Positions 13,077 to 37,675 are shown, counted from the first letter of the stretch. The stretch: DNA of 64,000 bases from Deltaproteobacteria bacterium (GCA_031396445.1 JANNKU010000028.1:20651-84650); one strand, 5' to 3'. Translations and numbers: made by a program. Notes: generated by a model not told the origin, from the letters alone.

Positions 13077-13217
13077 GAAAGGGGACGGTCCTCGAAGTGA
13101 CTGGCTGTCGACTGGAGGGACAGACTTGGGTGAAGCATGTCCCTGTAGTCATCAGCCAGTCACTTCGAGGACCGTCCCTAAAGTGACTCCAAAGTGACTG
13201 GGTGATGACTACAGGGA
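13072..13217. repeat. Foldback (MITE/REP-like) element, family A, copy 1
   Basis: 26-bp perfect inverted repeat: gggacggtcctcgaagtgactggctg (13082-13107) against 13153-13178. Nested inverted pairs: gggaca...tgtccc and ccctgtagtcat...atgactacaggg. It shares GGTGAGAAAGGGGACGGTCCTCGAAGTGACTGG with 61604.. and 48709... The TGA stop of the ArsA gene (13074-13076) lies inside it. Confidence 0.9.
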
Positions 13218-13248
13218 CGGGCTTTGAGGGATGAGCGGGGTTTTGTGA

Positions 13249-14010: not shown

Positions 14011-14314
14011 GCCAACTCGCGGACCTCCCTCCCCGGCCGACTCTCGCCCCCCCCGTCCTGTTGAGTTCGGATGAGATCTGGAAGAGAACCCGGAGTGGCA
14101 AAGTGCCTCCGGGTCTTCGGCAACCGGCGCGGATGCACGCGAGCTGCGTGGTCACGAGTAAGAAAGCACTCGCGTAATCCGCCCGTCCTGCCGAGGAGAT
14201 TTGCCAAAACCGCGAGCGACCGGCGTTCGAGGCGAACGCTGGCGCCCCGCAGACAAGGAGCTCCGCGTCGGCGATCTGCCGCGCGAGGGCTCGAAGGCAG
14301 GGGGAACGCGTCCC

Positions 14315-15886
14315 ATGGTGCGGCGGAACACGAATCGGCAGACGGAGTTCGCTGTCTCGCGGTCGAGCGCTGGGACGCGCGCGATCGTCGCGGCAGCCAT
14401 CGCGGCGCTGAGCTTCAACGCAACCGGCGCAGGCGCCGCGACCGTCTCGGAAGTGCGCGTCGGTACCCACGACGACGGGCATACCCGCATCGTCGTCGAG
14501 CTCGACTCGGCCGCGGGCTATCGCCTGCAAGCGCCGAGCGAAGGGAAGGCGCCCGAGCTGATCGTCGATCTCGACGCCACCAGCATCGAGCGCGACGTCC
14601 CCTCGAAGAGCCGCGTCGTGAAGAAGGTCCACGTCGAGCCGACCGCCAATGGTTCGACCGTGCGCATCTCGCTCGCAACGGGCGACGTTGCGGTGAAAGA
14701 GATGTTGCTCGCGAACCCGCCGCGGATCGTGCTCGATCTGAAGGCGCGCGGTCCGATCCCGAAGAGCGATGCCGTGGCCGACGCGGCCGCCGAGACTTCT
14801 GTTGCCGCGGCGAGCCCCGAGAAGGTGGCTCTCGTGCCGCCGACACCGGCGAAGGTCGAAGCGCCGAAGAGCGAGCCGGTCGTCGTCGCGGCTGCCGAGC
14901 CCACGCCGGTCGTCGAGAAGCGCGAAGCGCCGCTCCAGCTCGAAGCGCCGCCGTCCGCAGTGGCGAAGCCGTCGAACTCCGCTGCGCCGTCGCAAGCGAA
15001 GCGCGACGCGATGCCGCCGCCGCCCACCGATCCGCAGCCCGAGTTCGAATCGACTGCCACGGAACCGGCGGCTGCAAAGCCCACCTTGATTCCGCCCGTC
15101 GATCGCGAGAAGAGCAGCGCGCAGCAGACGTCGCCCGCGACCTCGATCGCCGCCGCCGCCGAAGCGCGTCGCAAGGCGATCGCCGAGAAGGCGCAGAGTT
15201 CGAGCAGCGAATCGCTGATGGATCTCGCGATGAGTCCCATCGGACTTGGCGCGATTGGCGCCGTCGTGCTGCTGCTCGCGATCGTGGTGATGCGCCGCCG
15301 CCGCAGCGCGGAAGACGAGGATCCGCTCTACACCGTGATGTCGGCCGACGATGCCGGCGTGGGTGTCTCGATGGACGCCGCCTATCCGGTCACTGACGAG
15401 GCGGAGTTCCGCACTCCGGTGCTCGCGAACCTCGGCCCCTTCGATCCCGATGCGTTCGAAGAAGCGTCCGAACCGGCGATCCGCGACAACGGACCGCGTC
15501 AGCTCGCACTCGGCAGTGCGCCGATCGTGAGCGAGCCGGAAGCGAGCGTGATGCTCGGCGACGACTCCGACGCGGACTCGATCTTCGCGGCGGAGCCCGA
15601 AGTGATCGCATCGGCCGTGCCGGTGATGGCGCCGGCCTTCGAGCCGACGCCGGTCGCGCCGCATGTCGCGCAGATTTCCGCCGAGGTCGAGCGCCGCGTA
15701 TCGGAGCTCGAACGCCGCCTCGAACAACTCACCGAAGCGCGCGAGCGACTCGAACGACAGGTCGCAGCGCAGACCGAAGAGCTGCGCGTTCAGCGCGCGG
15801 CGATCGCTCGCACACAGCGCGTCGTGCGCACGATCGCAAAGACGGAAGACATGGCGACCGAGCCGGTGCCGCGGGCCAACGCATGA
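14315..15886 (+). CDS. AMIN-domain protein with Pro/Ala/Glu-rich linker, one TM helix and a C-terminal coiled coil
   Basis: Frame of track ORF 14201..15886; I prefer ATG 14315 (MVRRNTNRQ...). AMIN signature: VSEVRVGTHDDGHTRIVVELD...PELIVDLD and NGSTVRISLA...PPRIVLDLKA. TM: IGLGAIGAVVLLLAIVVMRRRRS. Heptad-rich tail: VERRVSELERRLEQLTEARERLERQV. Confidence 0.75.
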   Translation: MVRRNTNRQTEFAVSRSSAGTRAIVAAAIAALSFNATGAGAATVSEVRVGTHDDGHTRIVVELDSAAGYRLQAPSEGKAPELIVDLDATSIERDVPSKSRVVKKVHVEPTANGSTVRISLATGDVAVKEMLLANPPRIVLDLKARGPIPKSDAVADAAAETSVAAASPEKVALVPPTPAKVEAPKSEPVVVAAAEPTPVVEKREAPLQLEAPPSAVAKPSNSAAPSQAKRDAMPPPPTDPQPEFESTATEPAAAKPTLIPPVDREKSSAQQTSPATSIAAAAEARRKAIAEKAQSSSSESLMDLAMSPIGLGAIGAVVLLLAIVVMRRRRSAEDEDPLYTVMSADDAGVGVSMDAAYPVTDEAEFRTPVLANLGPFDPDAFEEASEPAIRDNGPRQLALGSAPIVSEPEASVMLGDDSDADSIFAAEPEVIASAVPVMAPAFEPTPVAPHVAQISAEVERRVSELERRLEQLTEARERLERQVAAQTEELRVQRAAIARTQRVVRTIAKTEDMATEPVPRANA

Positions 15887-15943
15887 TTTTCGCACCACGG
15901 CCGCAGACGGCCGCGCGCTACTAAACCGAAATAGGATCAGGGG
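15882..15943 (-). repeat. Hairpin repeat, family B, copy 1 (diverged)
   Basis: The reverse complement reads cccctgatcctatttcggtttagtagcgcgcggccgtctgcggccgtggtgcgaaaatcatg, which aligns with the copies at 42.26, 46.47-46.63 and 47.35-47.49 kb. The TGA stop of the AMIN gene (15884-15886) lies in its TCATGA-like end. Confidence 0.75.
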
Positions 15944-15978
15944 TCCGGCCCTGCCGGCCCCGCATGGACGGCGCGCGC

Positions 15979-16284
15979 TCAAATCTCGATGCGCCCGCCT
16001 GCGTCACAACGCGCTTCGATCGGCGGCGCGTAGGTCTCGGTGCTGGGAAGCAGCTCCTGGTAGATGACGGAACCCGAAGCGGCGCAGATCGGGACCGTCT
16101 GACCTTCCGTGAGCGACCCTTCGTACAACCACGTCGTACATTCCGCAGGCGCGCTCGCTTCGCAGACACGAACCTGCGTCGAAGACGGGTCGGCATCGAT
16201 CTTCGTGAGCTGGCAACAGACCGCCTGCGCCGAACCCGATTGCATCGCAAAGAAAAGCGCAACCATCACTCTCGAAATCTTCAT
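15979..16284 (-). CDS. Small secreted Cys-rich protein (101 aa, 6 Cys in the mature part)
   Basis: Internal ATG at 16284 of track ORF 15979..16596 is preceded by GGAGGA 5 nt upstream. Signal peptide MKISRVMVALFFAMQSGSAQA. Mature part: VCCQLTKIDADPSSTQVRVCEASAPAEC.... Divergent from the giant-protein operon. Confidence 0.7.
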   Translation of the reverse strand: MKISRVMVALFFAMQSGSAQAVCCQLTKIDADPSSTQVRVCEASAPAECTTWLYEGSLTEGQTVPICAASGSVIYQELLPSTETYAPPIEARCDAGGRIEI

Positions 16285-16363
16285 CGTTTCCTCCGATTCT
16301 TGATCGTCGAATCTACGCGCTGCGCGTTGACACAGAATCCATTCACCGTAGCATGCGCGCCGC

Positions 16364-16723
16364 ATGAGCAAGTTCACCGCGCATCGGATCGCCGCAGCGT
16401 TCGCCGCGCTGCTGTCGTCGATGGCGTTTGCCGGATCGGTCAGTGCCGTGACGCTCGTCTCGAGCTGGCCGATCGGTGGCGACTCCGTGCCGGTCACGAT
16501 GACGTTCACCGACTTGCCGAGCGGCAACGGCGTCGAGATCACCGTCTCGATTCCAGAAGGAACCGGCGATCTGCTCGGCCTCTTCGGAAATGTCACCGAC
16601 GAGAGCCTCGTCCCGCAGCTCGATACAGTCGGGTCGCTCGTGTACCAAGAACAGTTCGCGGCGAATCTCGTCTACAAGGTCGGTGGCGGCAACGAAGTCG
16701 CTCCGGTGCAGCAATGGGATTAG
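16364..16723 (+). CDS. Signal-peptide-bearing N-terminal fragment, in frame with the following giant ORF (separated by one TAG)
   Basis: MSKFTAHRIAAAFAALLSSMAFAGSVSA|VTLV... is a Sec signal with an AxA site. The ORF ends at TAG 16721-16723, and the next 20 codons remain open in the same frame up to the track start of ORF 16784. Confidence 0.65.
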   Translation: MSKFTAHRIAAAFAALLSSMAFAGSVSAVTLVSSWPIGGDSVPVTMTFTDLPSGNGVEITVSIPEGTGDLLGLFGNVTDESLVPQLDTVGSLVYQEQFAANLVYKVGGGNEVAPVQQWD

Positions 16724-16783
16724 GGGCTGCGCTTCGAGAGTTCCACCTGGCAGAGCGAAGACATCCACACCGTCACGTTTCAG

Positions 16784-19700
16784 TTGACCGCTCCGGGTTT
16801 GACGAGCGTTCATCTGCTCAACGCCGCCAACCAGGGCTGGTACTTCGGCGTCCGGATCCGCCACACCCTCGGCCCCAAAACAAAAGCGAGCATTGGCTTT
16901 CCGGTGAGCCCGCCGCCCGCCGGTATCGCGGCCACGATTGCAATCTCGACACCCGCCGAAGCAGCGCTCTTTGTGCAGAGCGACGTTCCTGTTGCTGGAA
17001 CCCTGACCGGGACGACGCCCATCGCCGTCACCGTGAATGGCATCTGGGCCTACCTCAGTTCGGGATCCGTCGGCTTTCAACGCACCCTCACGCTGACCGA
17101 CGGCACGCACACGATTCGCGCGCTTGCGGGCAACTCTTGGGGGCACATGGGCGATGAGGTCACGGTCACAGTCGATACGGTCGCGCCCGTCATCTCCATC
17201 GCGGCGCCAGCCGCCGGAACGCTCACGACTGGCGACTCGATCATCGTCTCGGGAACAGCGACCGACGCAACGAGCGGCATCGCGAGTGTCGTCGTAAACG
17301 GCGTCTCGGCGACACTCGTTGGGAGCGCCTTCAACGCATTGGTCCCGCTCGCGCTCGGCGCGAACTCGATCACGGCGACGGCGACGGATGTGGCGGGCAA
17401 CACTGCGGCTGCGTCCAGGAGCGTCACGCGCGGGATCACGCCGACCGTTGTCATCACCGCGCCTGCTGCAGGACTTCTCACGAACCAGACTCCGATCGCG
17501 GTCACCGGAACTGTGAGTGGCACCGTCCCCGTCACGGTGACAGTCAACGGCGTTGCGGCGACCGTCACGGGCGAAACGTGGACCGCGAGTGTCGCGCTCG
17601 GGGAAGGGAGCAACACGCTCAGCGCGAGCGCGGTGAATGCGTTTGGCAATGGCAGCAGCTCGGTGGCGGTGACGCTCGACTCGACTCCGCCGCTCGTCTC
17701 GATCGCCGCGCCCGCAAACGGGACGACAGTGACGAGCCAACCGATTGCAGTGAGCGGAACGGTCGCCGACGCGAGCGCGATCGCATCGCTCCACGTCAAC
17801 GGCGACCCCATCGCCGCGAGCAACTCGTTCGCGACGACTGCCGCTCTCGCAACCGGCTCGAACACGATCGTCGTCGAAGCTACTGACGCTGCGGGCAACG
17901 CCGGCTCTGCCTCGGTCGCTGTGACCTACCAGCCGGCGACGTCGCTCTCAATCGAAATTGAAACGCCTCCCGCTGGCGCCCTCTTCTCGAAGGCCGAGGT
18001 CGAGGTCGCGGGCGCCGTGAGCGATCCGGTCGCGTCGGTGCGCGTGAACGGTGTACTCGCGACTGTCACGGGCGAGCGGTGGGTCGCATCCCGCGTGCCG
18101 CTCGCGGAAGGCCCCAACACGCTCACGGCTACGGCGACACGCGGAAACGACAGTGCAGCGGCAGCCGTCGCCGTCACGTACAACGCGCCGCCGCAGGTGG
18201 TGATCACGTCGCCCGCCGCGGGTGCGCTCTTTCGAACCGATGCGACCGATGTCGAGGGCGTCGTCGATGATCTCGCGGCGTTCGTCGATGTGAACGGCGT
18301 CATCTCAAGCGTCGGCGCGGGTGGTCGCTTCGTCGCGAGCGGAGTCGCGCTCGCACCCGGCGACAACACAATCATCGCGCGCGCCATCGACACGCTCGGT
18401 GCGAAGGGCACCGACTCGGTCGCCGTCCTGCGCGACGACGCCGCGGCTGGTCGCACGCGCCTCGTGATCCGCGAGAGCAACAGGTGGGTGGAGCCCTTGG
18501 AGGTAGTCTTCGCGAGCCTCGGTGATTGGGATGAGAGCCTTCGCGTCGGCAACGATCTAGGAACCTTTCCGCGGCCCTACGACATCGGCCGCGAGCGATT
18601 CCAACCGGTACCCGACGTCCCAACGGTTTATCCCGGGGAGCAGGTCTTCCTGCTCTCGGAGGAAGCTGGAGATGTCGACTTCGTGTCATTCCTCGGCCAC
18701 GAGACGGCAGCGCATCTCTCCCAAGCGGGAGTGTCGACGTTCCCGATGGAAGACCTCGGTATCTACCTCCCGCTCGAGATGCTCGCGTTGCCGGAGGTTC
18801 TCGAGCCGGGCGACTTCGAGCCGCGCTTCTTCGCGGTCGGCGACTCGCTCCTTGTCGCTTGCATAGTCGACAGTTGCCCGCCCGGCTCCATCGAGGGTGG
18901 ACGCGTGCGGCTGCGGGCAACCCAAGACGGTGTGCAGCGCGAGATCGCTCTCGCTGTCGATGCGAGACGCCCCGAGTTCGAGTTCTTCTCGCCGGGCGGC
19001 AGCTCCGTGATCGCCGGTGGTCTGGTCACGGTGACGGGCGTCGTCCGCGACGCGGGTCCGCTGCTCGACACGGTGTCCTACACGGTGTCCGATGAGTTCG
19101 GCATCGTCGTGTACGAGGGGCTCGTTCCGCTCCTCGTCGATTTGATCGATGGACCGAGCCCGGCGTTCCGCGGCCGCTTCGCGATCCCTGATCTCGTGCT
19201 CGCCAATGGACTCCATTTCGTCGAGGTGACGGCCTGGGATTCGCTCGGCAATCGGCGGATCTCGGGCACCGAGTTCACGATCGACGCCGATGCGCCAGCC
19301 GCCTCGCTCTACTCGCCTCTCGACGGCTCGGCATTCGTTGAGAGCGAAGTCCAGGCATCGCTCAACTTCGGAGCGCCGACGACAATCGTTTCCGTGAACG
19401 AAGTCCCCGACGGCCGGAGTTTCCCTGCCGGGATAGCCGCCAACGTCCTCACGCTGCCGCTCACACTCGGCCCGAATCTCGTCGAAGTCGAAGTACAGAA
19501 CAGCGCCGGCGTCTTCCTACTCTCGTTCACGCTGCACCGCGTGAGCGAGCAGCGCGAGGTCCGCATCATCGCGCCCGTCGCCGGCAATCTCGTGAACACG
19601 CACACCCTCACCGTCATGGGCACCGTGCCCCTCGGCGCCCCCGCCGTACTCGTGAACGGCGTCCTCGGCGCGATCGCGCCCGACCGCGTGTCGTTCACGG

Positions 19701-22534
19701 CGACGATTCCGGTTCCCTCGACGGAGAACATCGTGATCGATGGCGACGTGGCGAGGAAGCCATTCGCGATCACCGCCGAAGCGCTTCCACTCGGCGGGAG
19801 CGCCACGGTCGAGGTGACGCCCGACTTCCAGTTGCCACAGTTCCGCGTCGTGCTGCCCGAGGACGGCGCGTTCACGAGCGAAGCCGCCGTGGCGCTCACG
19901 GGCTTCCTCTCCGAAGCCGCGACCGTATCAATCGAAACGCTCGATGGGCCGCTCGTGGTTTCGACCGTCCGCGACCGCGCGCGCGAGGACGCGGAGCCCT
20001 TCAATCCCTTCAACGCAAAGCAGTTCCATCGCTTCGAGCTGCCAGAGATTGCGCTCGCGACGGGCGCGAACGCGCTGACGCTCCGCGCGCGGGACCGGGC
20101 GGGGAACGAAGGCGCTCGCACCCTCACGCTGACACGGGGCGACACGAGCCTCGCGCTGGTGAGTCCTGTGTCCGGCAGCACCGTCGCCGAGCGCGTGACG
20201 GGCGTCATGGTGCGCGCGGCGGCGGACCTGACGATCGACGCATGCTTCGTCGCAGGCCGCCAGATTCCTTCGCTCGGCGGAGCCACCATCGGGGCAGGAG
20301 TCGATACGCCGATCAACGGCCTGCCGCTCGTGCCCGGTGCGAACGACGTGCGCATCGTCCATCACCGCGCGGGCGGCGCGAGCGAAGTGCTTCGCTTCCA
20401 GCTCACTTCGACGGCCGCCGACTACGCGACGGTCTCCGGCCACGTGACCGACGTGCGCACCGGCGAAGCCGTTGCCGGCGCGCTCGTCTCGATCACCGCG
20501 GGCGGCGTGAGCTTCACCGTCGCTACGGACGCCAATGGGAACTATCTCGCGCAGGTGGCGCCGGGTTCGATTGCGGTAGCGACCGTCGCCGAGGGCTACG
20601 CCGCGGCGAGCGCATCGGGCAGCGCCGCGGCAGGCGCGACGCTCGTCGCCGACGTCGGCCTCGCTTCGACCGGCGTTCCCGCAGTGGCGAATGAAGTGCG
20701 TATCCTCGTACCGCCCGCAGGAGCCGTGACCGACTTCGCGATGCTGACGGTCGTCGGCACGGTGCTCAATCCTACTTCTACTGTCACGGTGAACGGGATC
20801 GCGGCGCAGGTCGTGGGCAATCGCTTCACAGCCAAGCATGTGCCGCTCGCGATGGGGGCGAACACGATCGCGGCGAGCGCGATGGTGCTCGGGTTGCCGA
20901 ACGCGACGCGAAGTGTCGGCGTCGCGCGGTCGGATGAGCCGGTGTTGCAGGTGAAGCTGTTCTCGCCGCCGGATGGCGCGACGGTGCCGGGCGGCGGGAT
21001 CGTCGTGCGCGGCTTTGCGAGTGCGGAGACTGTGCTCGTTCAAGTCTCGGGCGGAGGAGTAGCGGTACCCGTGGAGGGGGTATTCGAGGCCGCGGACGTC
21101 GCGCTGCCGATGGACGCAACGGAGATTGACGTCTCGGTTCGAACGATCGACGGTGCCCAAACCGCCCTCGCGTCGAGTGGAGTCACCGTGGACCGCGTCG
21201 GGTCTGCCCTCGTGCTCGGCGCCGATCCCGTCAATGGGAATGTTCCGCTCGAGACCGAACTCCAGCTCACCGCCACGCTGCCGCTCATTGCCGTCGCGCG
21301 CATCGACTTCGATCTCGACGGCAACGGAGTCCTGGACGTGCTGGCAAGCGCCAGCGCGACTGCGAGTCTGACGATCTCGGAGCCGACGCTCAGGCTGGCG
21401 CGTGCCTATGCGACGACGCACTCGGGCGTGGAGCTTTCCGCGCCGGTCGCTCTGCACGCGCATCTGCCCGCGACCCCGCTCCGGAGCTTTGCCGCGGGCA
21501 ATCCCGTCGATCTAGCGCCCGGCGCGGGCAACGATCTCTACGTCCTCGACGCGACGGCTGGGCGGGTTACTCGCTATGACCAGGACGGAACGGAACTCGA
21601 TGGCTTCGGCAGCTCCGGCGCCGGTCCCGACCAACTTGCGAGTCCACAGGCGTTCGCCGTCGGCGCCGACGGTCGCTTCTATGTCGCGGATACGGGGAAC
21701 GACCGAGTCCAGGTATTCACTCCGGCCGGTACGTTCGAGCGCAGCATCGGGGCGGGAGATCTGAGCGGACCATCGGGCGTCGCGGTCGACGGAGATCTCC
21801 TGATCGTGTCGGACACCGGAGCAGGCCGGCTTCGGATCTTCCGGCTCGACGGAGCGCCAGTCGCATCGGTTCCGATCGCGAATCCTCGTGGCATTGCGAC
21901 GACGGCCGCCGGCGGCGTTCTCGTCGCGAGTCCGAGCCAGGGGCTCCGTACTTTCTCGGACGGAGTGCTCACGACGATCGCGGCGATCGAGTCGCTGCCG
22001 CCCGAGCAACAGCCCGCATCACCGGTGGATGTCGTGGAAGGATCGGACTCGACGCTCGTAGCGGGCGCGTCGACTGGATCGGTCGTGCAGTTCTGGCCGA
22101 GTCTTCGGCTGCGACGGGTGATCTCCGACGTGGCGGGCGCGAAGGCTGTGCTCACCGGCCAGCGGCGGGAGATCGAGTCGATCTATGTCGCCGATGGAAA
22201 GCGGGTCACCGAAGTCGGTCTACCCGTTCCTTCGCCGCTGCCCACGCTGACGGCGCTGAAGGCGCGACTGCTCGCGCTGGACATCGAGGGCGCGCTCGAG
22301 TGGATCTCGCCGGAGCGACGAGCGTATTTCCGCGACGTCTACGAACGGAGCGGCGCAACGTTGGCAACCGAGGCCGCTGCGATGGGCCAACTCGACATCG
22401 ATCTCTTGCGGGAAGGTCGCGCAATCGCGCTGATCCATCGCGAAGTGCAGGAACCCACGGGCCCGGTGGATCGTCAGTATCCCGTGTATCTCGTGCGGTC
22501 GGCGGACGGAAGATGGCTCGTTCTCGACTACTGA
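16784..22534 (+). CDS. Giant surface/secreted protein: at least 11 Ig-like modules, a CarboxypepD_reg-like domain, an NHL-repeat beta-propeller and an NTF2-like C-terminal domain
   Basis: 1916-aa ORF. Recurrent module: ..P..G......I.VSG.V.D.....V.VNGV.A...G..F.A.V.L..G.N.I.A.A.D.AGN.....V.VT. CarboxypepD_reg segment: TVSGHVTDVRTGEAVAGALVSITAGGVSFTVATDANGNY. NHL repeats: FYVADTGNDRVQVFTPAGTF, LLIVSDTGAGRLRIF. The track start is a TTG with no signal peptide. Confidence 0.8.
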   Translation: MTAPGLTSVHLLNAANQGWYFGVRIRHTLGPKTKASIGFPVSPPPAGIAATIAISTPAEAALFVQSDVPVAGTLTGTTPIAVTVNGIWAYLSSGSVGFQRTLTLTDGTHTIRALAGNSWGHMGDEVTVTVDTVAPVISIAAPAAGTLTTGDSIIVSGTATDATSGIASVVVNGVSATLVGSAFNALVPLALGANSITATATDVAGNTAAASRSVTRGITPTVVITAPAAGLLTNQTPIAVTGTVSGTVPVTVTVNGVAATVTGETWTASVALGEGSNTLSASAVNAFGNGSSSVAVTLDSTPPLVSIAAPANGTTVTSQPIAVSGTVADASAIASLHVNGDPIAASNSFATTAALATGSNTIVVEATDAAGNAGSASVAVTYQPATSLSIEIETPPAGALFSKAEVEVAGAVSDPVASVRVNGVLATVTGERWVASRVPLAEGPNTLTATATRGNDSAAAAVAVTYNAPPQVVITSPAAGALFRTDATDVEGVVDDLAAFVDVNGVISSVGAGGRFVASGVALAPGDNTIIARAIDTLGAKGTDSVAVLRDDAAAGRTRLVIRESNRWVEPLEVVFASLGDWDESLRVGNDLGTFPRPYDIGRERFQPVPDVPTVYPGEQVFLLSEEAGDVDFVSFLGHETAAHLSQAGVSTFPMEDLGIYLPLEMLALPEVLEPGDFEPRFFAVGDSLLVACIVDSCPPGSIEGGRVRLRATQDGVQREIALAVDARRPEFEFFSPGGSSVIAGGLVTVTGVVRDAGPLLDTVSYTVSDEFGIVVYEGLVPLLVDLIDGPSPAFRGRFAIPDLVLANGLHFVEVTAWDSLGNRRISGTEFTIDADAPAASLYSPLDGSAFVESEVQASLNFGAPTTIVSVNEVPDGRSFPAGIAANVLTLPLTLGPNLVEVEVQNSAGVFLLSFTLHRVSEQREVRIIAPVAGNLVNTHTLTVMGTVPLGAPAVLVNGVLGAIAPDRVSFTATIPVPSTENIVIDGDVARKPFAITAEALPLGGSATVEVTPDFQLPQFRVVLPEDGAFTSEAAVALTGFLSEAATVSIETLDGPLVVSTVRDRAREDAEPFNPFNAKQFHRFELPEIALATGANALTLRARDRAGNEGARTLTLTRGDTSLALVSPVSGSTVAERVTGVMVRAAADLTIDACFVAGRQIPSLGGATIGAGVDTPINGLPLVPGANDVRIVHHRAGGASEVLRFQLTSTAADYATVSGHVTDVRTGEAVAGALVSITAGGVSFTVATDANGNYLAQVAPGSIAVATVAEGYAAASASGSAAAGATLVADVGLASTGVPAVANEVRILVPPAGAVTDFAMLTVVGTVLNPTSTVTVNGIAAQVVGNRFTAKHVPLAMGANTIAASAMVLGLPNATRSVGVARSDEPVLQVKLFSPPDGATVPGGGIVVRGFASAETVLVQVSGGGVAVPVEGVFEAADVALPMDATEIDVSVRTIDGAQTALASSGVTVDRVGSALVLGADPVNGNVPLETELQLTATLPLIAVARIDFDLDGNGVLDVLASASATASLTISEPTLRLARAYATTHSGVELSAPVALHAHLPATPLRSFAAGNPVDLAPGAGNDLYVLDATAGRVTRYDQDGTELDGFGSSGAGPDQLASPQAFAVGADGRFYVADTGNDRVQVFTPAGTFERSIGAGDLSGPSGVAVDGDLLIVSDTGAGRLRIFRLDGAPVASVPIANPRGIATTAAGGVLVASPSQGLRTFSDGVLTTIAAIESLPPEQQPASPVDVVEGSDSTLVAGASTGSVVQFWPSLRLRRVISDVAGAKAVLTGQRREIESIYVADGKRVTEVGLPVPSPLPTLTALKARLLALDIEGALEWISPERRAYFRDVYERSGATLATEAAAMGQLDIDLLREGRAIALIHREVQEPTGPVDRQYPVYLVRSADGRWLVLDY

Positions 22535-23082
22535 TCCTCGGGTTGGCCGTCACGGTCTTCCTGATCTTCTGGCTGCCGCTCTACAACTGCGGACCGATCT
22601 GGGCACGCCAACTCGAAGGCCAAGTGATCGACAAGGCGACGGGTAAACCGGTTCCCGAGGCGGAGGTCTTCGCGCTCTATCAGATGCGGCTCGGAGGTAC
22701 GATCGATTGGCGTTGGACGACGACGGACGCAGAAGGGCGGTTCGTCATCCCGGGCCATCTCGCGATCTTCTACTTCGGAAGGAGAGGCATCTTCGACCAG
22801 ACGGACAAGTACCCGCTCATCGAGGTCTTGCATCCGGCGTATGGGAGGTTCTGGTGGGGTGGCGGCAACTACGAGCCGGACTGGAGCTGGCGGAACGTTC
22901 GCATCGAGATCGAACGCGATGCGATCTGGTTGAAGGGCCTCGAACGAGATCGAAAGCGCGAAGACGCAGGCTTGTGTAACTACATGCCGTCAACGGCCCG
23001 CATACGTTGTTGCGAGTTGCTGTTCGGTAGCGACGCGGCTCGGATCTGCGCGCCCCCACGGCCAGGGACACTTCCGCGATGA
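22513..23082 (+). CDS. Membrane-anchored CarboxypepD_reg-like domain protein
   Basis: ATG 22513 (MARSRLLILGLAVTVFLIFWLPLY = N-terminal TM) overlaps the giant gene's 3' end by 22 nt. Domain segment: GQVIDKATGKPVPEAEVFA...TTTDAEGRFVIPG. ATGA overlap with the next gene. Confidence 0.6.
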   Translation: MARSRLLILGLAVTVFLIFWLPLYNCGPIWARQLEGQVIDKATGKPVPEAEVFALYQMRLGGTIDWRWTTTDAEGRFVIPGHLAIFYFGRRGIFDQTDKYPLIEVLHPAYGRFWWGGGNYEPDWSWRNVRIEIERDAIWLKGLERDRKREDAGLCNYMPSTARIRCCELLFGSDAARICAPPRPGTLPR

Positions 23083-26000
23083 ATAGATTGATGCGCTTGA
23101 TGATTCTCTCGTGGCTGGCAATGCCACAGTCGGCCCTCGCTTGGGGGAATCTGGAGGCTCATCCAGAGCTGACCAAGAGCGCCGTACTGCGCGACGAGCG
23201 GATCGCCCAACACCTTCGCGATGTCTACGGACTGGCACAAGGACTCGACGCCGAGCTCGCAGTGCAGGTTGGCTTCGACGACAGCACGGATCTCGACATC
23301 TTGGGCGGCGGCCCCGACAGTCAATCTCGGTTCGCGCAGAGCTGGAACAGCGGGATATTCCAAGACGCGGTCGAGACGCCGCCCTTCGATACACAGATAT
23401 TGCTGAATGCCGCGTGTCGAGCCCCGTCGTGTCTCGACGATCTGGCGCGGCGCAGTGTTCTCACCCTCCTTCGCTCGGGCTCGTTCGGCGAAGACAACCC
23501 GAACATCAGAGCGAGCCACCACTTCCACGACCCGGTGAAGCATCACGATGAGCCCGAGGTCACGGTTCCTGGGCAGTCTGTACCGCCCGGGAACAAGGGT
23601 CTGGACAACACGCAAGAGTATGTAACCGGAGAGCTCAAGGCGCTGGCTGCGAGCTTCGCCACGCTTTGGCTGCGCGGTGGGGGTGGAGACTTCCGATTCT
23701 TCGGGCGATCCGCCTTGGATCGCGCGTTGAACGAGCCCATCGGGAATCCGGCGTCTTCGGCCGCACCCGAGAACTTCTTCGCGCTCACGGACGCAGAGCA
23801 CTATCTGTTCGAGTCCGCCATGGCGTCATTGGCCGGCGAACGTGAGCACTACCTGGCGCTGCACTTCCTTGCCGTCGGGAGCGTGCTTCATCTGCTCCAG
23901 GACATGAGCAGCGTCGCCCACACACGAAACGATTTCCTTGCGGATCACCTCTATCCCGAGCTCGTTCCGTTCTCCGGTCTCACTCTCGAGGGCGCGGGTG
24001 AGCAAAGCGCGCTGTTGGGGTTTGTTGGACAGTTCGGTAAGTCCGAGACGGATGTCCTGGCGGCGTCTCCCGCTATCGCTCTGGCAAACCTCGATCCGAC
24101 CCGGTTTACCGGCTTGTACGCGTCGAGACTGCCGTTCTTCGACCCATCGGGAGCCGCATTCGCGGACTTCTGGGATTCGCCCAGCCGGCTCGGCCTCGCC
24201 GAGTTCACCAATGCGCACTTCTTCAGCCGCGCCACGGTCGACGACCGCTACGTCGCGGGGAACCCGAGCGCCACCTCCGAGACCGGCTACCCGTCGCCAC
24301 GTGTTGCCGGCTGCCAACTCGGTGCGGAAGCGGGCACCGGGAGTGCAAGAACCTTCGTGACGCTGCTGCCCCGGCGCGATCTCGACACCGGCCGGTTCCT
24401 CGGGCCGGAATCCGAGATTCCGTTTCTCTCGAGCGAGACCGTTCCGCACCTCGCGAAATGCGGTTGGCATGCGGCGGCAGCACCGAGCGTCATCGACGAC
24501 AGCGTGATGCGCGACTACTTGGAGATGCTGCTGCCGCTCGCCGTCGACTACAGCGCGAAGTTCCTGGAGCGATACTTCGCGCCGCGGATCGCCGTTCGCG
24601 CCGTCGGCGAGCGAGAGTTCCGCATCGAGAACGTGTCCGATCTCCCGATCCGCATTCGCGCCTCCGAGCTGCGCGCGGCCTACGACGACGACGACGGGAA
24701 CCGGTGGTCGATCGAACTGGACTGCGGAAGCGGCGCCTCGGAGATCGAGATCGAGCCCAGCGAGACGTCGGAGGCAACGTGCACGCTTCCGACCTCGCTG
24801 CCCTCCGCCAACGAACCACCCGCGGTGAGCGCCGACTTCTGGGTCGTGGCGCGTGGCGCGCACGGAACGCGTGGGAGCGCCGACCCGAGCGAGTTCGAGA
24901 CCCGCGGATTCGTGACGCTCGTCGCGCACATCCAGCCGCAGCTCCTCGTGCACGGCGCGATCACGAACGAAGCCTTCACCGATGACGACCCGCGCTACCC
25001 GATCGACATCTTCGCGATCCCGCTCGACCTCGGTCGCGAGGTGGCGGAGAACGACGTCCCCCCGACGCGCACCAATCTGACCGCTGCCCTGCGCGCGTCG
25101 ATCGGCAGCGCCTCGCTCGATCTCACGTCACCGAACGGCGAGCCGGGAGGAGTACGGATCGCGCTGCGCTCGGACAAGGACGCAACGGAGGCGGACGGAT
25201 TCTTCCTCGATGTCGCGGCTCCGCAGAAGGCGTACCTATTCGATCCAACCGCTCCGCCTTCATCGCCGGATGCGCTCACGCTGATTCCCGAATCGCAGAT
25301 CCACCTGCCGAACGGCCGACCTCACCTCGCGCCGCTCTTCAGTGGCGACGGCGCCGCGATCTTCTACTACGAGGACACCTCATTTGCCTCACAAGCGGAG
25401 AGAAGCTCGAAGGACGCATTGCTTCGCTATCGCATCGCAGACGAGCAGCACACGCGCTTCACGGATCGCATCGCCCTCGCGGCGTCGGACCCCGATGAAA
25501 CTCCCGACGATCGCGACCTCGGAGATCGGCGCGACGTCTGTGAGGGCCTAGAGAACGTGTCCGCTCGCTTGGAGTCGGTCATTGCGGGGCAGGTGAGCTG
25601 CCACCCCGAAGTGGTGCAAGCGCTTCCGAACGGGCAGAAGTTCTGGAGTGCGACGGGTCCATTTCGCCGAGAGATCCGCATCGCAACCGTCGAGCCGGCG
25701 GTCGACGAGCCGGGCAAGCTCGAAGCCCGCTATACGGATCGAATCGACGTCGTCGCGGGTGCAGCAATCCAGTGTGGCGGGAGCCCGAACCAATGCTGGC
25801 AGCGAGGCGGCGAACCGAGCGGCGGAGCGGTTGCACACGACGACGGCGTCGCTTGGTCGCCCGATGGAACTCGAATCGCATTCCTCCGGACACCGACGAG
25901 CAACCCGCTCGAATTCGAACAGGAGATCTGGGTCGCCGATCTGGTCACCCGCGAGGTCCGGCGCGTGATGACGGACGAGCACGGTGACCCGGGGGTCCCG

Positions 26001-26222
26001 CAGTGGTCGCCCGATGGAGACTGGCTGGTCTTCGGGATGAGTGTCGGAGCGCAAGCCGTCGTTACGCCCAATGGCTTGATCACCGAGAGCGAAGGCGACA
26101 TCGATGTTTACGCGATTCGCGCGGATGCCGCTTCGCCGCAGCCTCCGCAACGACTGACGCGCGGCCTCGAGCCGTTCTCGATCGGGATCTACGCGCCGCT
26201 TACGTTGCCGAGTACCCCGTGA
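23079..26222 (+). CDS. Secreted fusion protein: N-terminal zinc-dependent phospholipase C / P1-nuclease-like domain + long middle region + C-terminal TolB-like (PD40) beta-propeller repeats
   Basis: Signal peptide MNRLMRLMILSWLAMPQSALA followed directly by WGNLEAH (mature-N-terminal Trp + His, as in Zn-PLC/P1 nuclease). Further motifs: HHFHDP and VGSVLHLLQDMSSVAHTRND (H..D...H). C-terminus: GVAWSPDGTRIAFLR...EIWVADL...PQWSPDGDWLVF. Confidence 0.7.
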   Translation: MNRLMRLMILSWLAMPQSALAWGNLEAHPELTKSAVLRDERIAQHLRDVYGLAQGLDAELAVQVGFDDSTDLDILGGGPDSQSRFAQSWNSGIFQDAVETPPFDTQILLNAACRAPSCLDDLARRSVLTLLRSGSFGEDNPNIRASHHFHDPVKHHDEPEVTVPGQSVPPGNKGLDNTQEYVTGELKALAASFATLWLRGGGGDFRFFGRSALDRALNEPIGNPASSAAPENFFALTDAEHYLFESAMASLAGEREHYLALHFLAVGSVLHLLQDMSSVAHTRNDFLADHLYPELVPFSGLTLEGAGEQSALLGFVGQFGKSETDVLAASPAIALANLDPTRFTGLYASRLPFFDPSGAAFADFWDSPSRLGLAEFTNAHFFSRATVDDRYVAGNPSATSETGYPSPRVAGCQLGAEAGTGSARTFVTLLPRRDLDTGRFLGPESEIPFLSSETVPHLAKCGWHAAAAPSVIDDSVMRDYLEMLLPLAVDYSAKFLERYFAPRIAVRAVGEREFRIENVSDLPIRIRASELRAAYDDDDGNRWSIELDCGSGASEIEIEPSETSEATCTLPTSLPSANEPPAVSADFWVVARGAHGTRGSADPSEFETRGFVTLVAHIQPQLLVHGAITNEAFTDDDPRYPIDIFAIPLDLGREVAENDVPPTRTNLTAALRASIGSASLDLTSPNGEPGGVRIALRSDKDATEADGFFLDVAAPQKAYLFDPTAPPSSPDALTLIPESQIHLPNGRPHLAPLFSGDGAAIFYYEDTSFASQAERSSKDALLRYRIADEQHTRFTDRIALAASDPDETPDDRDLGDRRDVCEGLENVSARLESVIAGQVSCHPEVVQALPNGQKFWSATGPFRREIRIATVEPAVDEPGKLEARYTDRIDVVAGAAIQCGGSPNQCWQRGGEPSGGAVAHDDGVAWSPDGTRIAFLRTPTSNPLEFEQEIWVADLVTREVRRVMTDEHGDPGVPQWSPDGDWLVFGMSVGAQAVVTPNGLITESEGDIDVYAIRADAASPQPPQRLTRGLEPFSIGIYAPLTLPSTP

Positions 26223-26223
26223 G

Positions 26224-27072
26224 ATGCGGCTAACGGCGGTCGCGATCCTGTTCTCGATGGCCGCGCTGGCTTCGGTCGGATGCACGCAACAACAAGATCG
26301 CGCGCCGAAGCCTGCGACGTCCATCGCACCCCGCGGCATCGCGAGCGTCGACGGATCCACCATCGACGCATCCGAGTTGGCGTCCGGCAAGGACGAGCCG
26401 CGCCGTGATCCGAAGCGTCAACTCGACGTCGCGATCGCGCGCAAGCTCGCGACCGCCGAAGCTCGGTTTCGGAATCTCACCGAGCGTTCCGACGTCGCGG
26501 CGAAACTCGACGCGATCCGCCGCAACGCCGTGCGAGCCGAAGAAGAAGCGCTGCGCGACGCGCTCTTCGCATCCGTCCGCGACGCGGTCGCGCTCACCGA
26601 CGAAGATCTGCGCGCGCACTACGAGAAGACGAAGCTCCGCTTTGCCGAACGCCAGTGGCGTTTCCTGCGCCAACGCTTCGCATCCGAAGCGGAAGCGCGT
26701 GCAGCGGATGCGAAGCTCGGCGCAGACGGGCGACTCGATGCCGCGCACGCCGAGGCGATCGGCCCCGCTGCCGCAGCGGAGGTCGCAACGGCGACGAGCC
26801 CCGAAGTGCTGCGGCTCCAGCAACCCGGCGAGCGCGCCACCGTCGCGCACGACGGCGGCTACCAACTCGTCGAGCTGGTCGAGATCCTGCCCGCGGAATC
26901 AAAGCCGTTCGAAGCCGTGCGCCCGCAGGTCGAAGCGAGTCTTCGCACGCTGCGCGCGCAGGCGGCGTTCCGAGCGGAGATCGAGCGGCTGCGTGCGAGT
27001 GCGAAGATCGAGGTCGACGGGGACGCGCTCGAAGCGTTGGAGGCGGCCCCGCAGGCGAGCGCCTCGGAGTGA
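26224..27072 (+). CDS. Lipoprotein, SurA/PpiD-like chaperone with a degenerate parvulin-type PPIase domain
   Basis: MRLTAVAILFSMAALASVGC (lipobox-like). EDLRAHYEKTKLRFAE... and a C-terminal ...FRAEIERLRASAKIEVD pattern, as in SurA/PrsA-type proteins. It starts 1 nt after the stop of the upstream gene. Confidence 0.55.
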   Translation: MRLTAVAILFSMAALASVGCTQQQDRAPKPATSIAPRGIASVDGSTIDASELASGKDEPRRDPKRQLDVAIARKLATAEARFRNLTERSDVAAKLDAIRRNAVRAEEEALRDALFASVRDAVALTDEDLRAHYEKTKLRFAERQWRFLRQRFASEAEARAADAKLGADGRLDAAHAEAIGPAAAAEVATATSPEVLRLQQPGERATVAHDGGYQLVELVEILPAESKPFEAVRPQVEASLRTLRAQAAFRAEIERLRASAKIEVDGDALEALEAAPQASASE

Positions 27073-27121: not shown

Positions 27122-27994
27122 TCAAGCCGCGCGTTCTCTGCTCGCGATGCGCAGCGCGCCGAGTGCGCCCGCGAACTCGCCGTTCGGCAGGAACACCGGA
27201 TCGCGTCCATGGCCGCGCAGGAAGTTTCCGAGCATCTCGGCGAGCGCCGGGTTGGAGCGCAGCGTAGAACCGCCGAACACGATGCGCTGCACCTGTGTCG
27301 CAGCGCTGAGCGCCGTGCAGACGAGCGAGATGTTCTCCGCGATCAGCCCCATGATCGCGTGCGCGACGTCGGCGCGTTCGATCGCTTCGCCGTCGCGCAG
27401 GCGCCGCGCGTACTTTCCGAAGTTCGCCGCGGTGAGATCGCCCGCGAGGTGGATGCCGCCAGCCGGGTAGATGTCGGAGACGAGCAGATCGATGGACTTG
27501 CGGGAGCCGTTCTGCGCAAGTGCCGCGATCGCGTCGAAGTCGCTGATGCCGAGCAATCCCGCGGCGAGACCGAGCAACGTGCCGCCACCGAGAGCCGTGC
27601 CGCCGATGCGTGTCACCGACGCGCCATCGACCAGCAGGATCGACGTGCCGGTGCCGACCGATACGAGCAGGTAGCGAGCGACGCCTACTTCATCGCGTTC
27701 GGCGAGCAATGCGGCGGCGCCCGCGCCCCACGCCGCGAACTCGTTCACCTGCACCAACTCGCCGGGCAATGCGCGCGCCAGCATCGTCGCGCCGCCGCCC
27801 GTGAGGCCCACGCGCGCCGCTCCGATGGCGACGAGCGCGGCGCGACTTGTGTCCGCGTCCTCGGTTGGAAGCAACCGGAACTCGACCTCGCCCTCCGGCG
27901 TACGGACGGCGAGCTTCGCCAACGTCGCGCCCCAATCGACGCCGATCGCCACGTTGGGAGAGTTGGTTGCGCGTTGCAGCGTCGCGGTTCCCAT
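27122..27994 (-). CDS. coaW: Type II pantothenate kinase (CoaW-like, ASKHA fold)
   Basis: Frame of track ORF 27122..28081, started at ATG 27994. Motifs match staphylococcal CoaW: IGVDWGATLAK, SVGTGTSI, GGTALGGGTLLGL, IDLLVSDIY, GDLTAANFG, NGEFAGALGAL. Confidence 0.8.
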   Translation of the reverse strand: MGTATLQRATNSPNVAIGVDWGATLAKLAVRTPEGEVEFRLLPTEDADTSRAALVAIGAARVGLTGGGATMLARALPGELVQVNEFAAWGAGAAALLAERDEVGVARYLLVSVGTGTSILLVDGASVTRIGGTALGGGTLLGLAAGLLGISDFDAIAALAQNGSRKSIDLLVSDIYPAGGIHLAGDLTAANFGKYARRLRDGEAIERADVAHAIMGLIAENISLVCTALSAATQVQRIVFGGSTLRSNPALAEMLGNFLRGHGRDPVFLPNGEFAGALGALRIASRERAA

Positions 27995-28038
27995 GGCCCG
28001 AGTCGGGTGATAGCCTTGGCGATCCAACAGGTTGGCCG

Positions 28039-37654: not shown

Positions 37655-37675
37655 CGAGCGCGAGAAGGAGCAGCG

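What the first reader, a model, noticed from the sequence alone, without database searches (positions are those of the whole stretch)
16364..27072. Translationally coupled operon: giant Ig/NHL protein, CarboxypepD_reg anchor, PLC-like::TolB-propeller fusion, parvulin-like lipoprotein
The ORFs are chained by start/stop overlaps: a 22-nt overlap at 22513, ATGA at 23079, and a 1-nt gap at 26224. This argues for co-expression of four products:
- a ~1900-aa multi-Ig/NHL surface protein;
- a small membrane protein with a CarboxypepD_reg domain;
- a secreted zinc-PLC/P1-nuclease-fold enzyme fused to PD40 repeats;
- a SurA-like lipoprotein.

A 6-Cys secreted miniprotein is transcribed divergently (15979..16284). 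I know of no described system with this composition. By inference, an adhesin delivering or positioning a lipolytic/nucleolytic enzyme with a dedicated periplasmic chaperone would suit a predatory or contact-dependent lifestyle. The 22.5-24 kb part looks visibly richer in A/T at third codon positions than its surroundings (qualitative impression only), hinting at foreign origin.
Basis: partly seen in the sequence, partly recalled or inferred. Interest (0 to 1): 0.65.

Follow-up and report, generated by a model that had tools for sequence, protein, structure and literature searches.

The report
Conserved secreted PLC-like enzyme operon
This is a real, tightly packed operon of exported proteins built around an uncharacterised zinc-phospholipase-C-like enzyme and its obligate partner domain. 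The core of the module recurs in at least six bacterial phyla, but in this genome the giant partner gene carries a premature stop codon.

Summary
The domain calls mostly hold.

- **Giant protein:** Ig-like and NHL domains.
- **Small protein:** a membrane anchor and a sub-threshold CarboxypepD_reg match.
- **1047-aa protein:** a signal peptide, an N-terminal domain that is a remote relative of Zn-dependent phospholipase C, and a TolB-like PD40 propeller.
- **Lipoprotein:** an HP0175/PrsA-like parvulin fold whose catalytic histidines are replaced.
- **Miniprotein:** the divergent 6-Cys gene is conserved with the cassette.

It lies where intact homologues have Trp or Phe, so the giant gene is interrupted here or mis-sequenced.

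The five-gene cassette is conserved in Myxococcota at 25-79% identity despite different flanks. Its core is much wider. It consists of a partner protein ending in a ~95-aa C-terminal domain, usually a small membrane protein, and then the PLC-like protein. This core appears in 34 of 35 distinct loci across Myxococcota, Planctomycetota, Nitrospirota, Desulfobacterota, Zixibacteria and Rokubacteria. It also appears in 7 of 7 loci found through the partner domain alone.

The GC3 dip is real but small, and I see no sign of foreign origin. The function is inferred: a surface-tethered phosphodiesterase. A predatory role is not supported.

The parts
15979..16284 (-). Secreted 6-Cys miniprotein (101 aa), transcribed divergently from the operon
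   Evidence: ORF and signal-peptide-like N-terminus. Homologues sit next to the giant gene in L003, L004, L005 and L016, with six invariant Cys. No Pfam or NCBIfam match.
16327..16354 (+). Promoter-like site TTGACA-16-TAGCAT, ending 9 nt before ATG 16364
   Evidence: Consensus scan, 10 of 12 matches. A consensus match only; it would imply a leaderless or very short-leader mRNA.
16364..16723 (+). N-terminal fragment of the giant protein (119 aa with signal peptide), ended by the in-frame TAG at 16721-16723
   Evidence: Translation and sequence. It aligns with residues 1-~120 of the intact homologues, and the TAG falls where they have W or F in the motif WD[W/F]GL.
16724..22534 (+). Remainder of the giant protein (1936 codons in the same frame). 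It contains an Ig-like array, a CarboxypepD_reg-like domain (~20432-20617), an NHL propeller (~21497-22084) and the C-terminal partner domain.
   Evidence: Pfam: Glucodextran_B x6, Big_13, CarbopepD_reg_2, NHL, SGL/Vgb_lyase-like. Internal DNA repeats mark the Ig units. It is 100% identical in two independent Logan assemblies from 17293 onward.
22160..22531 (+). 'Cdom': the conserved C-terminal partner domain of the giant protein (core ~22235-22531, ~95 aa). No Pfam or PDB match.
   Evidence: Alignment A8 across phyla. It lies directly upstream, on the same strand, of the PLC-like domain in 34 of 35 distinct loci. It also does so in 7 of 7 loci found through Cdom alone. No significant Pfam or PDB sequence match.
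22513..23082 (+). Small single-pass membrane protein (189 aa): N-terminal hydrophobic anchor, sub-threshold CarboxypepD_reg-like beta-sandwich, Cys-containing tail
   Evidence: Overlaps the giant gene by 22 nt. Pfam PF13620 E 6.9e-6, 26.8 bits, below the 32.3 cut-off. Conserved in cassette homologues. Weaker relatives lie between Cdom and the PLC-like gene in L019, L022, L027, L030, L031 and L045.
23079..26222 (+). 1047-aa secreted protein: signal peptide (23079-23141), PLC-like N-domain (23142-~24593), beta-rich region with a TolB-like PD40 propeller (~24594-26219)
   Evidence: AlphaFold model with pLDDT 78 and pTM 0.83. Foldseek on the whole model hits TolB and S9-peptidase propellers at E 3e-9. 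PDB profile hits to TolB at E 4e-17. PD40 Pfam match.
23490..23534 (+). Motif EDNPNIRASHHFHDP (residues 138-152). D139 and H148 correspond to the D55 and H69 zinc ligands of B. cereus PLC.
   Evidence: D139, H148, F149, D151 and P152 are invariant; E138, N140, P141, H147 and H150 are >=90% conserved. hhalign places the block on PLC residues 41-75. Ligand numbering is from established knowledge of 1AH7.
23889..23933 (+). Motif HLLQDMSSVAHTRND (residues 271-285). H271-x3-D275-x5-H281 has the same spacing as H118/D122/H128 of PLC and H116/D120/H126 of P1 nuclease.
   Evidence: H271, D275 and H281 are invariant in 22 close and 89 distant members. hhalign aligns the block to P1 nuclease 115-127 and to the corresponding PLC block.
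26224..27072 (+). Parvulin-type chaperone-like lipoprotein (282 aa), HP0175/PrsA-like, catalytic His pair replaced
   Evidence: Rotamase_2, 42.1 bits against a cut-off of 27. Near-full-length profile match to H. pylori HP0175 (6bhf), E 7e-7, where the two His positions align to non-His residues. Candidate lipobox LASVGC read from the sequence. Present in cassette loci L003, L004, L005, L007, L011, L016 and L017, but absent from L009/L010.

Best explanation
The region is one operon of five exported proteins, with the miniprotein divergently transcribed. It is built around a conserved, uncharacterised extracytoplasmic module.

**Shown**
1. Four co-directional genes have overlapping or abutting stop and start codons. 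This geometry and the gene order are conserved in relatives.
2. The 1047-aa product has a signal peptide whose predicted cleavage exposes Trp22. Next comes a ~480-aa mostly helical domain, a distant branch of the Zn-dependent phospholipase C / S1-P1 nuclease superfamily with the ligand-equivalent residues invariant. Last comes a TolB-like PD40 beta-propeller.
3. The last ~95 residues of the giant Ig/NHL protein form a domain ('Cdom'). Across at least six phyla it is encoded immediately upstream of a PLC-like gene, usually with a small membrane protein between them.
4. Myxococcota add a parvulin-fold lipoprotein lacking the catalytic histidines, and a 6-Cys miniprotein.

**Inferred**
1. Cdom is the cognate binding partner of the PLC-like enzyme, for docking or regulation.
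2. The partner protein, here a giant Ig/NHL scaffold, tethers a trinuclear-zinc phosphodiesterase at the cell envelope or surface.
3. The small membrane protein anchors or assembles the pair.
4. The parvulin-like lipoprotein acts as a folding chaperone for these large beta-rich secreted proteins.
5. The enzyme cleaves a phosphodiester substrate (phospholipid head group, nucleic acid or a phosphorylated polymer) that cannot be named from sequence.

In this particular genome the giant gene carries a TGG>TAG nonsense codon after residue 119. Unless that is a sequencing error, the scaffold lacks its signal peptide and the module is probably crippled.
For: **Operon**
- Junctions.
- No consensus promoter or terminator at the junctions.
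- Conserved order and overlaps in L003, L004, L005, L007, L011, L015, L016 and L017.
- Flanking genes differ between genomes, so the cassette is the conserved unit.

**PLC-like domain**
- W22 is >=90% conserved directly after the signal peptide. H28 is invariant in A5 and >=90% conserved in A1. D139, H148, H271, D275 and H281 are invariant.
- hhalign to the verified 1AH7 sequence gives E 0.0022. It aligns both ligand blocks in the same order. The HxxxDxxxxxH block aligns to P1 nuclease.
- Foldseek on the N-domain model returns Zn-PLCs as nine of the ten best PDB hits.
- Zn_dep_PLPC is the commonest Pfam family among 75 distant members (14 members, best E 0.0039).
- Family member P0229 (E 1e-47 to the family profile) matches PF00882 over profile positions 1-155 of 167, at 21.5 bits against a cut-off of 26.8.

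**Propeller:**

**Cdom linkage**
- Found in 34 of 35 distinct loci. More than 20 of these did not contribute to the Cdom model.
- Reverse test 7 of 7.
- Tandem duplicated Cdom-PLC pairs occur in Pirellulales.

**Chaperone:**

**Nonsense codon:**
Against: - No member, including the window protein, reaches the Pfam gathering score for PF00882 or PF02265.
- The Foldseek matches are not significant: E 0.4-10, TM <= 0.25.
- The PDB sequence profile search finds nothing for the N-domain.
- The last ligand pair of the canonical site, H-x3-E/D, is not present with that spacing. H290 and E304 are conserved but spaced differently.
- Binding between Cdom and the enzyme, the tethering role, the chaperone role and the substrate are all inference from gene neighbourhood. 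No complex model or experiment supports them.
- In L009/L010 the small protein and the parvulin-like gene are absent, so they are not essential to the core.
- The in-frame TAG means that in this genome the system may not function at all.
Confidence: 0.55

Rival explanations
1. Toxin/inhibitor logic. The PLC-like protein is an antibacterial or anti-prey effector. Cdom is a covalently carried inhibitor or immunity-like domain, or a delivery adaptor on an adhesin, so the operon would be a contact-dependent weapon.
For: Zn-PLCs include membrane-damaging toxins, and the top fold hits are alpha-toxins. The pairing of an enzyme with a small cognate domain is strict. Tandem diversified pairs in Pirellulales resemble effector/immunity arrays. 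The window organism is probably a myxobacterium.
Against: Cdom is encoded upstream and is itself exported, at the end of a signal-peptide protein. It is not a cytoplasmic or periplasmic immunity protein encoded downstream. No secretion-system, Rhs, CDI or T6SS marker appeared in the flanks that were scanned. The module is common in phyla with no known predatory habit. In L004 and L005 the cassette sits between housekeeping genes, hisA/F and rpsU-dnaG-rpoD.
Confidence: 0.15
2. Nutrient scavenging. The enzyme is a secreted or surface phosphodiesterase or nuclease that releases phosphate or nucleotides from environmental DNA, RNA or phospholipids. The Ig/NHL/dockerin-type partner holds it on the cell or on particles.
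For: The S1/P1 nuclease branch of the same superfamily degrades nucleic acids, and the HxxxDxxxxxH block aligns to P1. Partner proteins in other phyla carry dockerin-like, Ig, PKD and CarboxypepD_reg domains typical of surface-attached hydrolase systems. The module is spread widely through environmental phyla.
Against: No phosphate-regulon or transporter genes are linked in any locus examined. Nothing in the sequence distinguishes a nuclease from a lipase. This overlaps the best explanation and differs only in naming the substrate and purpose.
Confidence: 0.2
3. Structural envelope complex. The PLC-like domain is a non-catalytic binding module and the TolB-like propeller contacts peptidoglycan-associated partners. 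The operon would then build or anchor a surface fibre (the giant protein) and not an enzyme system.
For: TolB-like propeller. A giant repetitive Ig/NHL protein typical of surface fibres. The canonical last ligand pair is not conserved in spacing. The parvulin-like protein is non-catalytic.
Against: Seven of the nine ligand-equivalent positions of the trinuclear site are invariant or nearly so across ~110 aligned sequences of 25-80% identity. That is hard to explain without a metal site. There is no tol-pal context, and the TIGR02800 score is 28 against 343. In other phyla the partner is only 240-370 aa, not a fibre.
Confidence: 0.1

Closest known systems
Zinc-dependent phospholipase C (B. cereus PC-PLC 1AH7, C. 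perfringens alpha-toxin, Listeria PlcB; Pfam PF00882) and S1/P1 nucleases (PF02265)
   Same: Both are secreted, and signal-peptide cleavage exposes an N-terminal Trp. Both have a helical domain. The D...H and H-x3-D-x5-H ligand blocks occur in the same order and spacing. These are the best, though weak, fold and profile matches.
   Different: About twice the size (~480 aa against ~245 aa), with large insertions. Below every curated threshold. The terminal H-x3-E/D pair is not conserved in that form. Fused to a ~540-aa beta-rich/propeller region. Always paired with an upstream Cdom-bearing protein. Substrate and activity are unknown.
TolB (Tol-Pal system) and the propellers of S9 peptidases
   Same: PD40-repeat beta-propeller. 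These are the best structural and sequence matches for the C-terminal half.
   Different: Not a TolB equivalog: 28 bits against 343. No tolQRA-pal context. No S9 catalytic domain. Only the last two PD40 blades are recognisable by sequence.
HP0175 / PrsA / SurA-type parvulin chaperones
   Same: A helical chaperone region surrounds a parvulin domain. The profile match to HP0175 is near full-length. A lipoprotein-type signal is present, as in PrsA.
   Different: Both catalytic histidine positions are replaced. It is dedicated to one operon. It is absent from the module outside Myxococcota.
Operons of giant repetitive Ig-like adhesins with accessory genes (for example large Big/NHL surface proteins)
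   Same: A signal peptide, tandem Ig-like (Glucodextran_B/Big_13) domains and an NHL propeller in a ~2000-aa protein.
   Different: No T1SS, T5SS, sortase or PEP-CTERM sorting signal was seen in this protein. Its defining conserved part is the C-terminal Cdom. In other phyla Cdom is carried by proteins of only 128-370 aa.

Membership tests
Zn-dependent PLC / S1-P1 nuclease superfamily (Pfam PF00882, PF02265) | Scores at or above the Pfam gathering threshold | tested here: not met
   The window protein has no hit even at E<=10. The best relative, P0229, scores 21.5 bits against a cut-off of 26.8. 14 of 75 distant members hit PF00882 below threshold.
Zn-dependent PLC / S1-P1 nuclease superfamily (Pfam PF00882, PF02265) | The mature N-terminus is Trp, whose backbone ligates zinc, directly after the signal peptide | tested here: met
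   ALA|W22 in the window. W is >=90% conserved in 22 homologues, and is W, F or Y in distant members. The cleavage site is predicted by eye, not by a tool.
Zn-dependent PLC / S1-P1 nuclease superfamily (Pfam PF00882, PF02265) | Ligand blocks D...H and H-x3-D-x5-H in canonical order and spacing | tested here: met
   D139, H148, H271, D275 and H281 are invariant. They are aligned by hhalign to D55/H69 and H118/D122/H128 of 1AH7 and to H116/D120/H126 of 1AK0. The template sequences were verified against the PDB.
Zn-dependent PLC / S1-P1 nuclease superfamily (Pfam PF00882, PF02265) | Final H-x3-E/D ligand pair (H142/E146 in PLC; H149/D153 in P1) | tested here: inconclusive
   No H-x3-[ED] follows H281. 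D285 is invariant, and H290 and E304 are nearly invariant, but the spacing differs.
Zn-dependent PLC / S1-P1 nuclease superfamily (Pfam PF00882, PF02265) | All-alpha PLC/P1 fold with the ligands clustered in three dimensions | tested here: inconclusive
Zn-dependent PLC / S1-P1 nuclease superfamily (Pfam PF00882, PF02265) | Zinc-dependent phosphodiesterase activity | not testable with these tools
   Needs purified protein.
TolB (Tol-Pal) | PD40 beta-propeller | tested here: met
   PD40 E 1.5e-6. TolB chains at E ~5e-17 with the profile. Foldseek hit to TolB at E 3e-9.
TolB (Tol-Pal) | Equivalog-level match and tolQRA-tolB-pal gene context | tested here: not met
   TIGR02800 scores 28.4 bits against a cut-off of 343. 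The neighbours are unrelated.
Parvulin-type PPIase chaperones (SurA/PrsA/HP0175) | PPIC-type domain above the Pfam threshold, flanked by a helical chaperone region | tested here: met
   Rotamase_2 scores 42.1 bits against a cut-off of 27. The profile aligns to HP0175 residues 12-298, E 7e-7.
Parvulin-type PPIase chaperones (SurA/PrsA/HP0175) | Conserved catalytic histidine pair of active parvulins | tested here: not met
   HP0175 'ARHILV' and 'GYHIIY' align to 'LRQRFA' and 'GYQLVE' in this family. Which residues are catalytic is taken from established knowledge of parvulins.
Translationally coupled operon | Stop and start codons overlap or abut, conserved in relatives, on the same strand | tested here: met
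Translationally coupled operon | A single transcript and coupled translation | not testable with these tools
   Only a consensus scan was possible. It found no junction promoter or terminator.
Horizontally acquired island | Deviant composition together with tRNA, integrase or flanking repeats | tested here: not met
   GC3 is 0.75-0.80 for the cassette against 0.817 +/- 0.041 elsewhere, with the lowest stretch at 0.735. No tRNA in the window. No flanking direct repeats. No mobility genes next to the cassette.

The most novel reading that the evidence does not exclude
Three genes form a previously unrecognised, phylum-spanning extracytoplasmic enzyme system: a Cdom-bearing partner, a small membrane protein, and the PLC-like/propeller protein. 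In this reading Cdom is an obligate cognate subunit of a new, large clade of trinuclear-metal phosphodiesterases (about 4,600 clusters at 50% identity). It would act as a docking, activating or inhibitory subunit. The partner's variable N-terminal part (giant Ig/NHL scaffold, dockerin or PKD array) would set where the enzyme acts.
Probability: 0.4. Interest if true: 0.65.

Novelty: new variant of a known kind. Interest (0 to 1): 0.5.

Why it matters
The window is one instance of a large family that is, as far as I could find, unannotated.

- **Size of the family.** About 4,644 clusters at 50% identity match the N-domain profile at E <= 1e-3. Every source name seen was 'hypothetical protein' or 'PD40 domain-containing protein'.
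- **A defined experiment.** The strict two-way genomic coupling to a second unannotated domain suggests co-expressing Cdom with the PLC-like protein, testing binding, zinc content and phosphodiesterase activity, and then looking for the substrate.
- **What it would add.** If the enzyme is active, it adds a widespread surface hydrolase type in Planctomycetota, Myxococcota, Nitrospirota and others.
- **Practical point for this genome.** The giant gene should be annotated as interrupted (pseudogene or sequencing error), not as a 1916-aa protein starting at TTG.

Tried and rejected
- **PDB sequence searches.** The N-domain profile found nothing. The Cdom profile found only noise, E > 0.3.
- **Pfam on Cdom.** Single faint DUF4440 and DUF4878 (NTF2-like) hits in one member each. 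These are not evidence, so I do not claim the NTF2-like fold I suspected from the sequence pattern.
- **Whole-model Foldseek.** It was dominated by propellers and said nothing about the N-domain. A separate N-domain model was needed.
- **Independent check of the TAG.** An exact-protein lookup of the 119-aa fragment found no record. The two Logan contigs start 570 nt downstream of the TAG. A real mutation therefore cannot be told from an assembly error.
- **TAG recoding.** Rejected, because TAG ends 9 other putative genes in the window.
- **RNA and mobility features.** No Rfam family in the window. No tRNA. No island-type flanking repeats.
- **Literature.** Two full-text searches found nothing on this gene combination.
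- **Metagenome scan with Cdom.** The cross-phylum Cdom alignment was too divergent for the scan. The reverse test therefore used Planctomycetota-type Cdoms only.
- **Synteny.** There is none beyond the miniprotein with the 79%-identical relative.

Full report
**1. What is in the sequence**

The window is ~68% G+C. The region holds, on the + strand:

| Coordinates | Product |
|---|---|
| 16364-16723 | 119 aa |
| 16724-22534 | Same frame as above; longest start-to-stop ORF is TTG 16784, 1916 aa |
| 22513-23082 | 189 aa |
| 23079-26222 | 1047 aa |
| 26224-27072 | 282 aa |

On the - strand lies 15979-16284 (101 aa).

There is a 22-nt overlap (ATG 22513, TGA 22532-22534), ATGA at 23079-23082, and TGA-g-ATG at 26220-26226. 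A consensus scan finds no promoter-like or terminator-like site at any junction. The one good promoter-like site (TTGACA-16-TAGCAT, 16327-16354) lies just upstream of ATG 16364.

**2.

Reading from 16364, the frame contains TAG at 16721-16723. The 119-aa piece carries the signal peptide. The 1936 codons after the TAG continue the same protein.

The closest homologue, L003, is a single intact protein of 2056 aa. In alignment the TAG falls on W/F of the conserved motif WD[W/F]GL. The codon is TGG in L004 and L005 and TTC in L003, so a single G>A change explains it.

TAG also ends nine other putative genes in the window, so recoding is unlikely. I could not find an independent assembly covering the site. 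The choices are therefore a recent nonsense mutation or a consensus error. The absence of any further stop in 5.8 kb fits either.

**3. Domain content**

- **Giant protein.** Six Glucodextran_B Ig-like stretches (E 1.6e-69), Big_13, a CarboxypepD_reg-like domain, and NHL repeats above threshold.
- **189-aa protein.** A hydrophobic N-terminal anchor and a sub-threshold CarboxypepD_reg match, 26.8 bits against 32.3.
- **282-aa protein.** It passes Rotamase_2. As a family profile it aligns nearly end to end with H. pylori HP0175, E 7e-7. Both histidines of the parvulin active site are replaced. I read it as a chaperone and not an isomerase. That step is inferred.
- **Miniprotein.** A signal peptide and six invariant cysteines.

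**4. The 1047-aa protein**

Pfam and NCBIfam see only PD40/TolB-type repeats near the C-terminus.

An AlphaFold model built on 22 homologues has pLDDT 78 and pTM 0.83. It shows a mostly helical N-terminal ~480 residues followed by beta structure. The whole model matches TolB and S9-peptidase propellers, as does the sequence profile.

The evidence that the N-domain is a PLC relative is convergent, but each line is individually weak:

- The first residue after the predicted cleavage site ALA|W is Trp22, >=90% conserved. H28 is invariant or nearly so. D139, H148, H271, D275 and H281 are invariant. The spacing H-x3-D-x5-H is that of the zinc ligands of B. cereus PLC and of P1 nuclease. The ligand identities come from established knowledge of 1AH7 and 1AK0.
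- hhalign against the 1AH7 sequence, which I verified against the PDB, aligns both ligand blocks in the same order, E 0.0022. The second block aligns to P1 nuclease.
- A separate N-domain model returns Zn-PLCs as nine of its ten best Foldseek PDB hits, with an S1/P1 nuclease lower in the list. E is 0.4-10 and TM <= 0.25, so this is not significant.
- Zn_dep_PLPC is by far the commonest Pfam family among 75 distant relatives: 14 members, all below threshold.
- One relative, at E 1e-47 to the family profile, matches PF00882 over positions 1-155 of 167, at 21.5 bits against a cut-off of 26.8.

I conclude that the domain is a distant branch of the PLC/P1-nuclease superfamily and not a member of either Pfam family. 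The last canonical ligand pair is not conserved in its usual spacing. I could not inspect model coordinates.

**5. Conservation**

Lookups of homologues of 25-79% identity show the same cassette: miniprotein, giant, small, PLC-like and parvulin-like genes. The 22-nt overlap is often retained.

The flanks differ between genomes. In L004 and L005 they are hisA/F and rpsU-dnaG-rpoD. In L003 they are PilZ and NADH dehydrogenase genes. In the window they are an AMIN-domain ORF, a pantothenate kinase and an ExeA-like gene. The cassette is therefore the conserved unit.

The N-domain family is large, with 4,644 clusters at E <= 1e-3. A scan of one genome per species finds it in Myxococcota, Planctomycetota, Nitrospirota, Desulfobacterota, Zixibacteria and Rokubacteria, with weak motif-only hits in CPR lineages.

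**6. The main new result**

The last ~95 residues of the giant protein ('Cdom', ~22235-22531) are recognisable just upstream of the PLC-like gene in distant phyla.

- With HMMs of each cassette protein run over all fetched loci, Cdom lies on the same strand, directly upstream of a PLC-like domain, in 34 of 35 distinct loci with a solid N-domain match. More than 20 of these loci did not contribute to the Cdom model. Several Pirellulales loci hold two or three tandem Cdom-PLC pairs.
- In those phyla the Cdom carrier is short (128-370 aa) and has a signal peptide, sometimes with a dockerin-like segment. In Rokubacteria it is 857 aa with NHL and Ig domains. In Desulfurivibrio it is 1991 aa with PKD, fn3 and CarboxypepD_reg domains. 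A small membrane protein usually sits between the two genes.
- In the reverse test, seven metagenome loci were retrieved only by Planctomycetota-type Cdom. All seven have a PLC-like domain 0.4-1.3 kb downstream.
- Cdom has no Pfam or PDB match.

**7. Interpretation**

Shown: an operon of exported proteins; a conserved core of Cdom carrier, small membrane protein and PLC-like/propeller protein; and Myxococcota-specific additions.

Inferred: Cdom is the cognate partner of the enzyme. The variable part of the carrier, here a giant Ig/NHL scaffold, places a zinc phosphodiesterase at the envelope or surface. The parvulin-like lipoprotein helps these large beta-rich proteins fold.

The rivals are an effector/inhibitor weapon, phosphate or nucleotide scavenging, and a non-catalytic envelope structure. 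They are scored in the rival-explanations section.

**8. Foreign origin**

GC3 falls to 0.735-0.75 between 22.5 and 24 kb, against 0.817 +/- 0.041 for other genes. That is the lowest ~6.5% of windows. There is no tRNA, flanking repeat or mobility gene. The cassette has relatives throughout the lineage.

**9. Verdict**

This is a real and well-conserved operon.

The novelty lies in an unannotated, widespread PLC-like family and its strict pairing with an unannotated partner domain. The function remains inferred. Two literature searches found no description of this combination.

Noticed in passing
window 13082-13224: Three copies of a ~33-46-nt element form long, near-perfect inverted repeats (46-nt arms at 87% complementarity, 33-nt arms at 91%) in an apparently intergenic stretch upstream of the cassette.
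   Followed up: no
L013 10001-14349 (Desulfurivibrio sp. D14AmB, JBIPKH010000007.1): The PLC-like gene (586 aa) is separated from a 332-aa PD40 protein by an ISL3-family transposase. This looks like an IS insertion that split the fusion.
   Followed up: partly
L019, L022, L024, L026, L036 (Pirellulales MAGs): Two or three consecutive Cdom-carrier / PLC-like gene pairs sit in tandem, and several separate loci occur per genome. The module has expanded as paralogues in Planctomycetota.
   Followed up: partly
window 26190-26219 (C-terminus of the 1047-aa protein): The family ends in a conserved L-x-L-P-x-x-P motif at the very C-terminus; L1041 is invariant, and L1043 and P1044 are >=90% conserved. 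It could be the closing strand of the propeller or a sorting signal.
   Followed up: no
window 16327-16363: The -10-like hexamer ends only 9 nt before ATG 16364, and no Shine-Dalgarno sequence lies between them. The operon mRNA would be leaderless or nearly so.
   Followed up: no
window 27122-29820: Downstream neighbours are a Fumble/type II pantothenate kinase on the - strand (27122-27994) and an ExeA-like AAA_22 + PG_binding_1 protein (28039-29820).
   Followed up: partly
window 32007-38428: A polysaccharide-synthesis cluster lies further on. Polysacc_synt_3 (32007-33461) and Glycos_transf_2 (33740-34636) were scanned with Pfam; the later ORFs were not.
   Followed up: partly
window 13805-15982: Two long overlapping ORFs lie on opposite strands: 725 aa on - and 561 aa on +. 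Only the + ORF has a Pfam hit, a weak AMIN match. The true gene here is unresolved.
   Followed up: partly
L018 8445-8831 (Nitrospirae MAG): A stand-alone 128-aa protein consists only of a signal peptide and Cdom. It sits right after a 581-aa protein that also ends in Cdom and right before the PLC-like gene. Cdom can therefore work as a separate polypeptide.
   Followed up: partly
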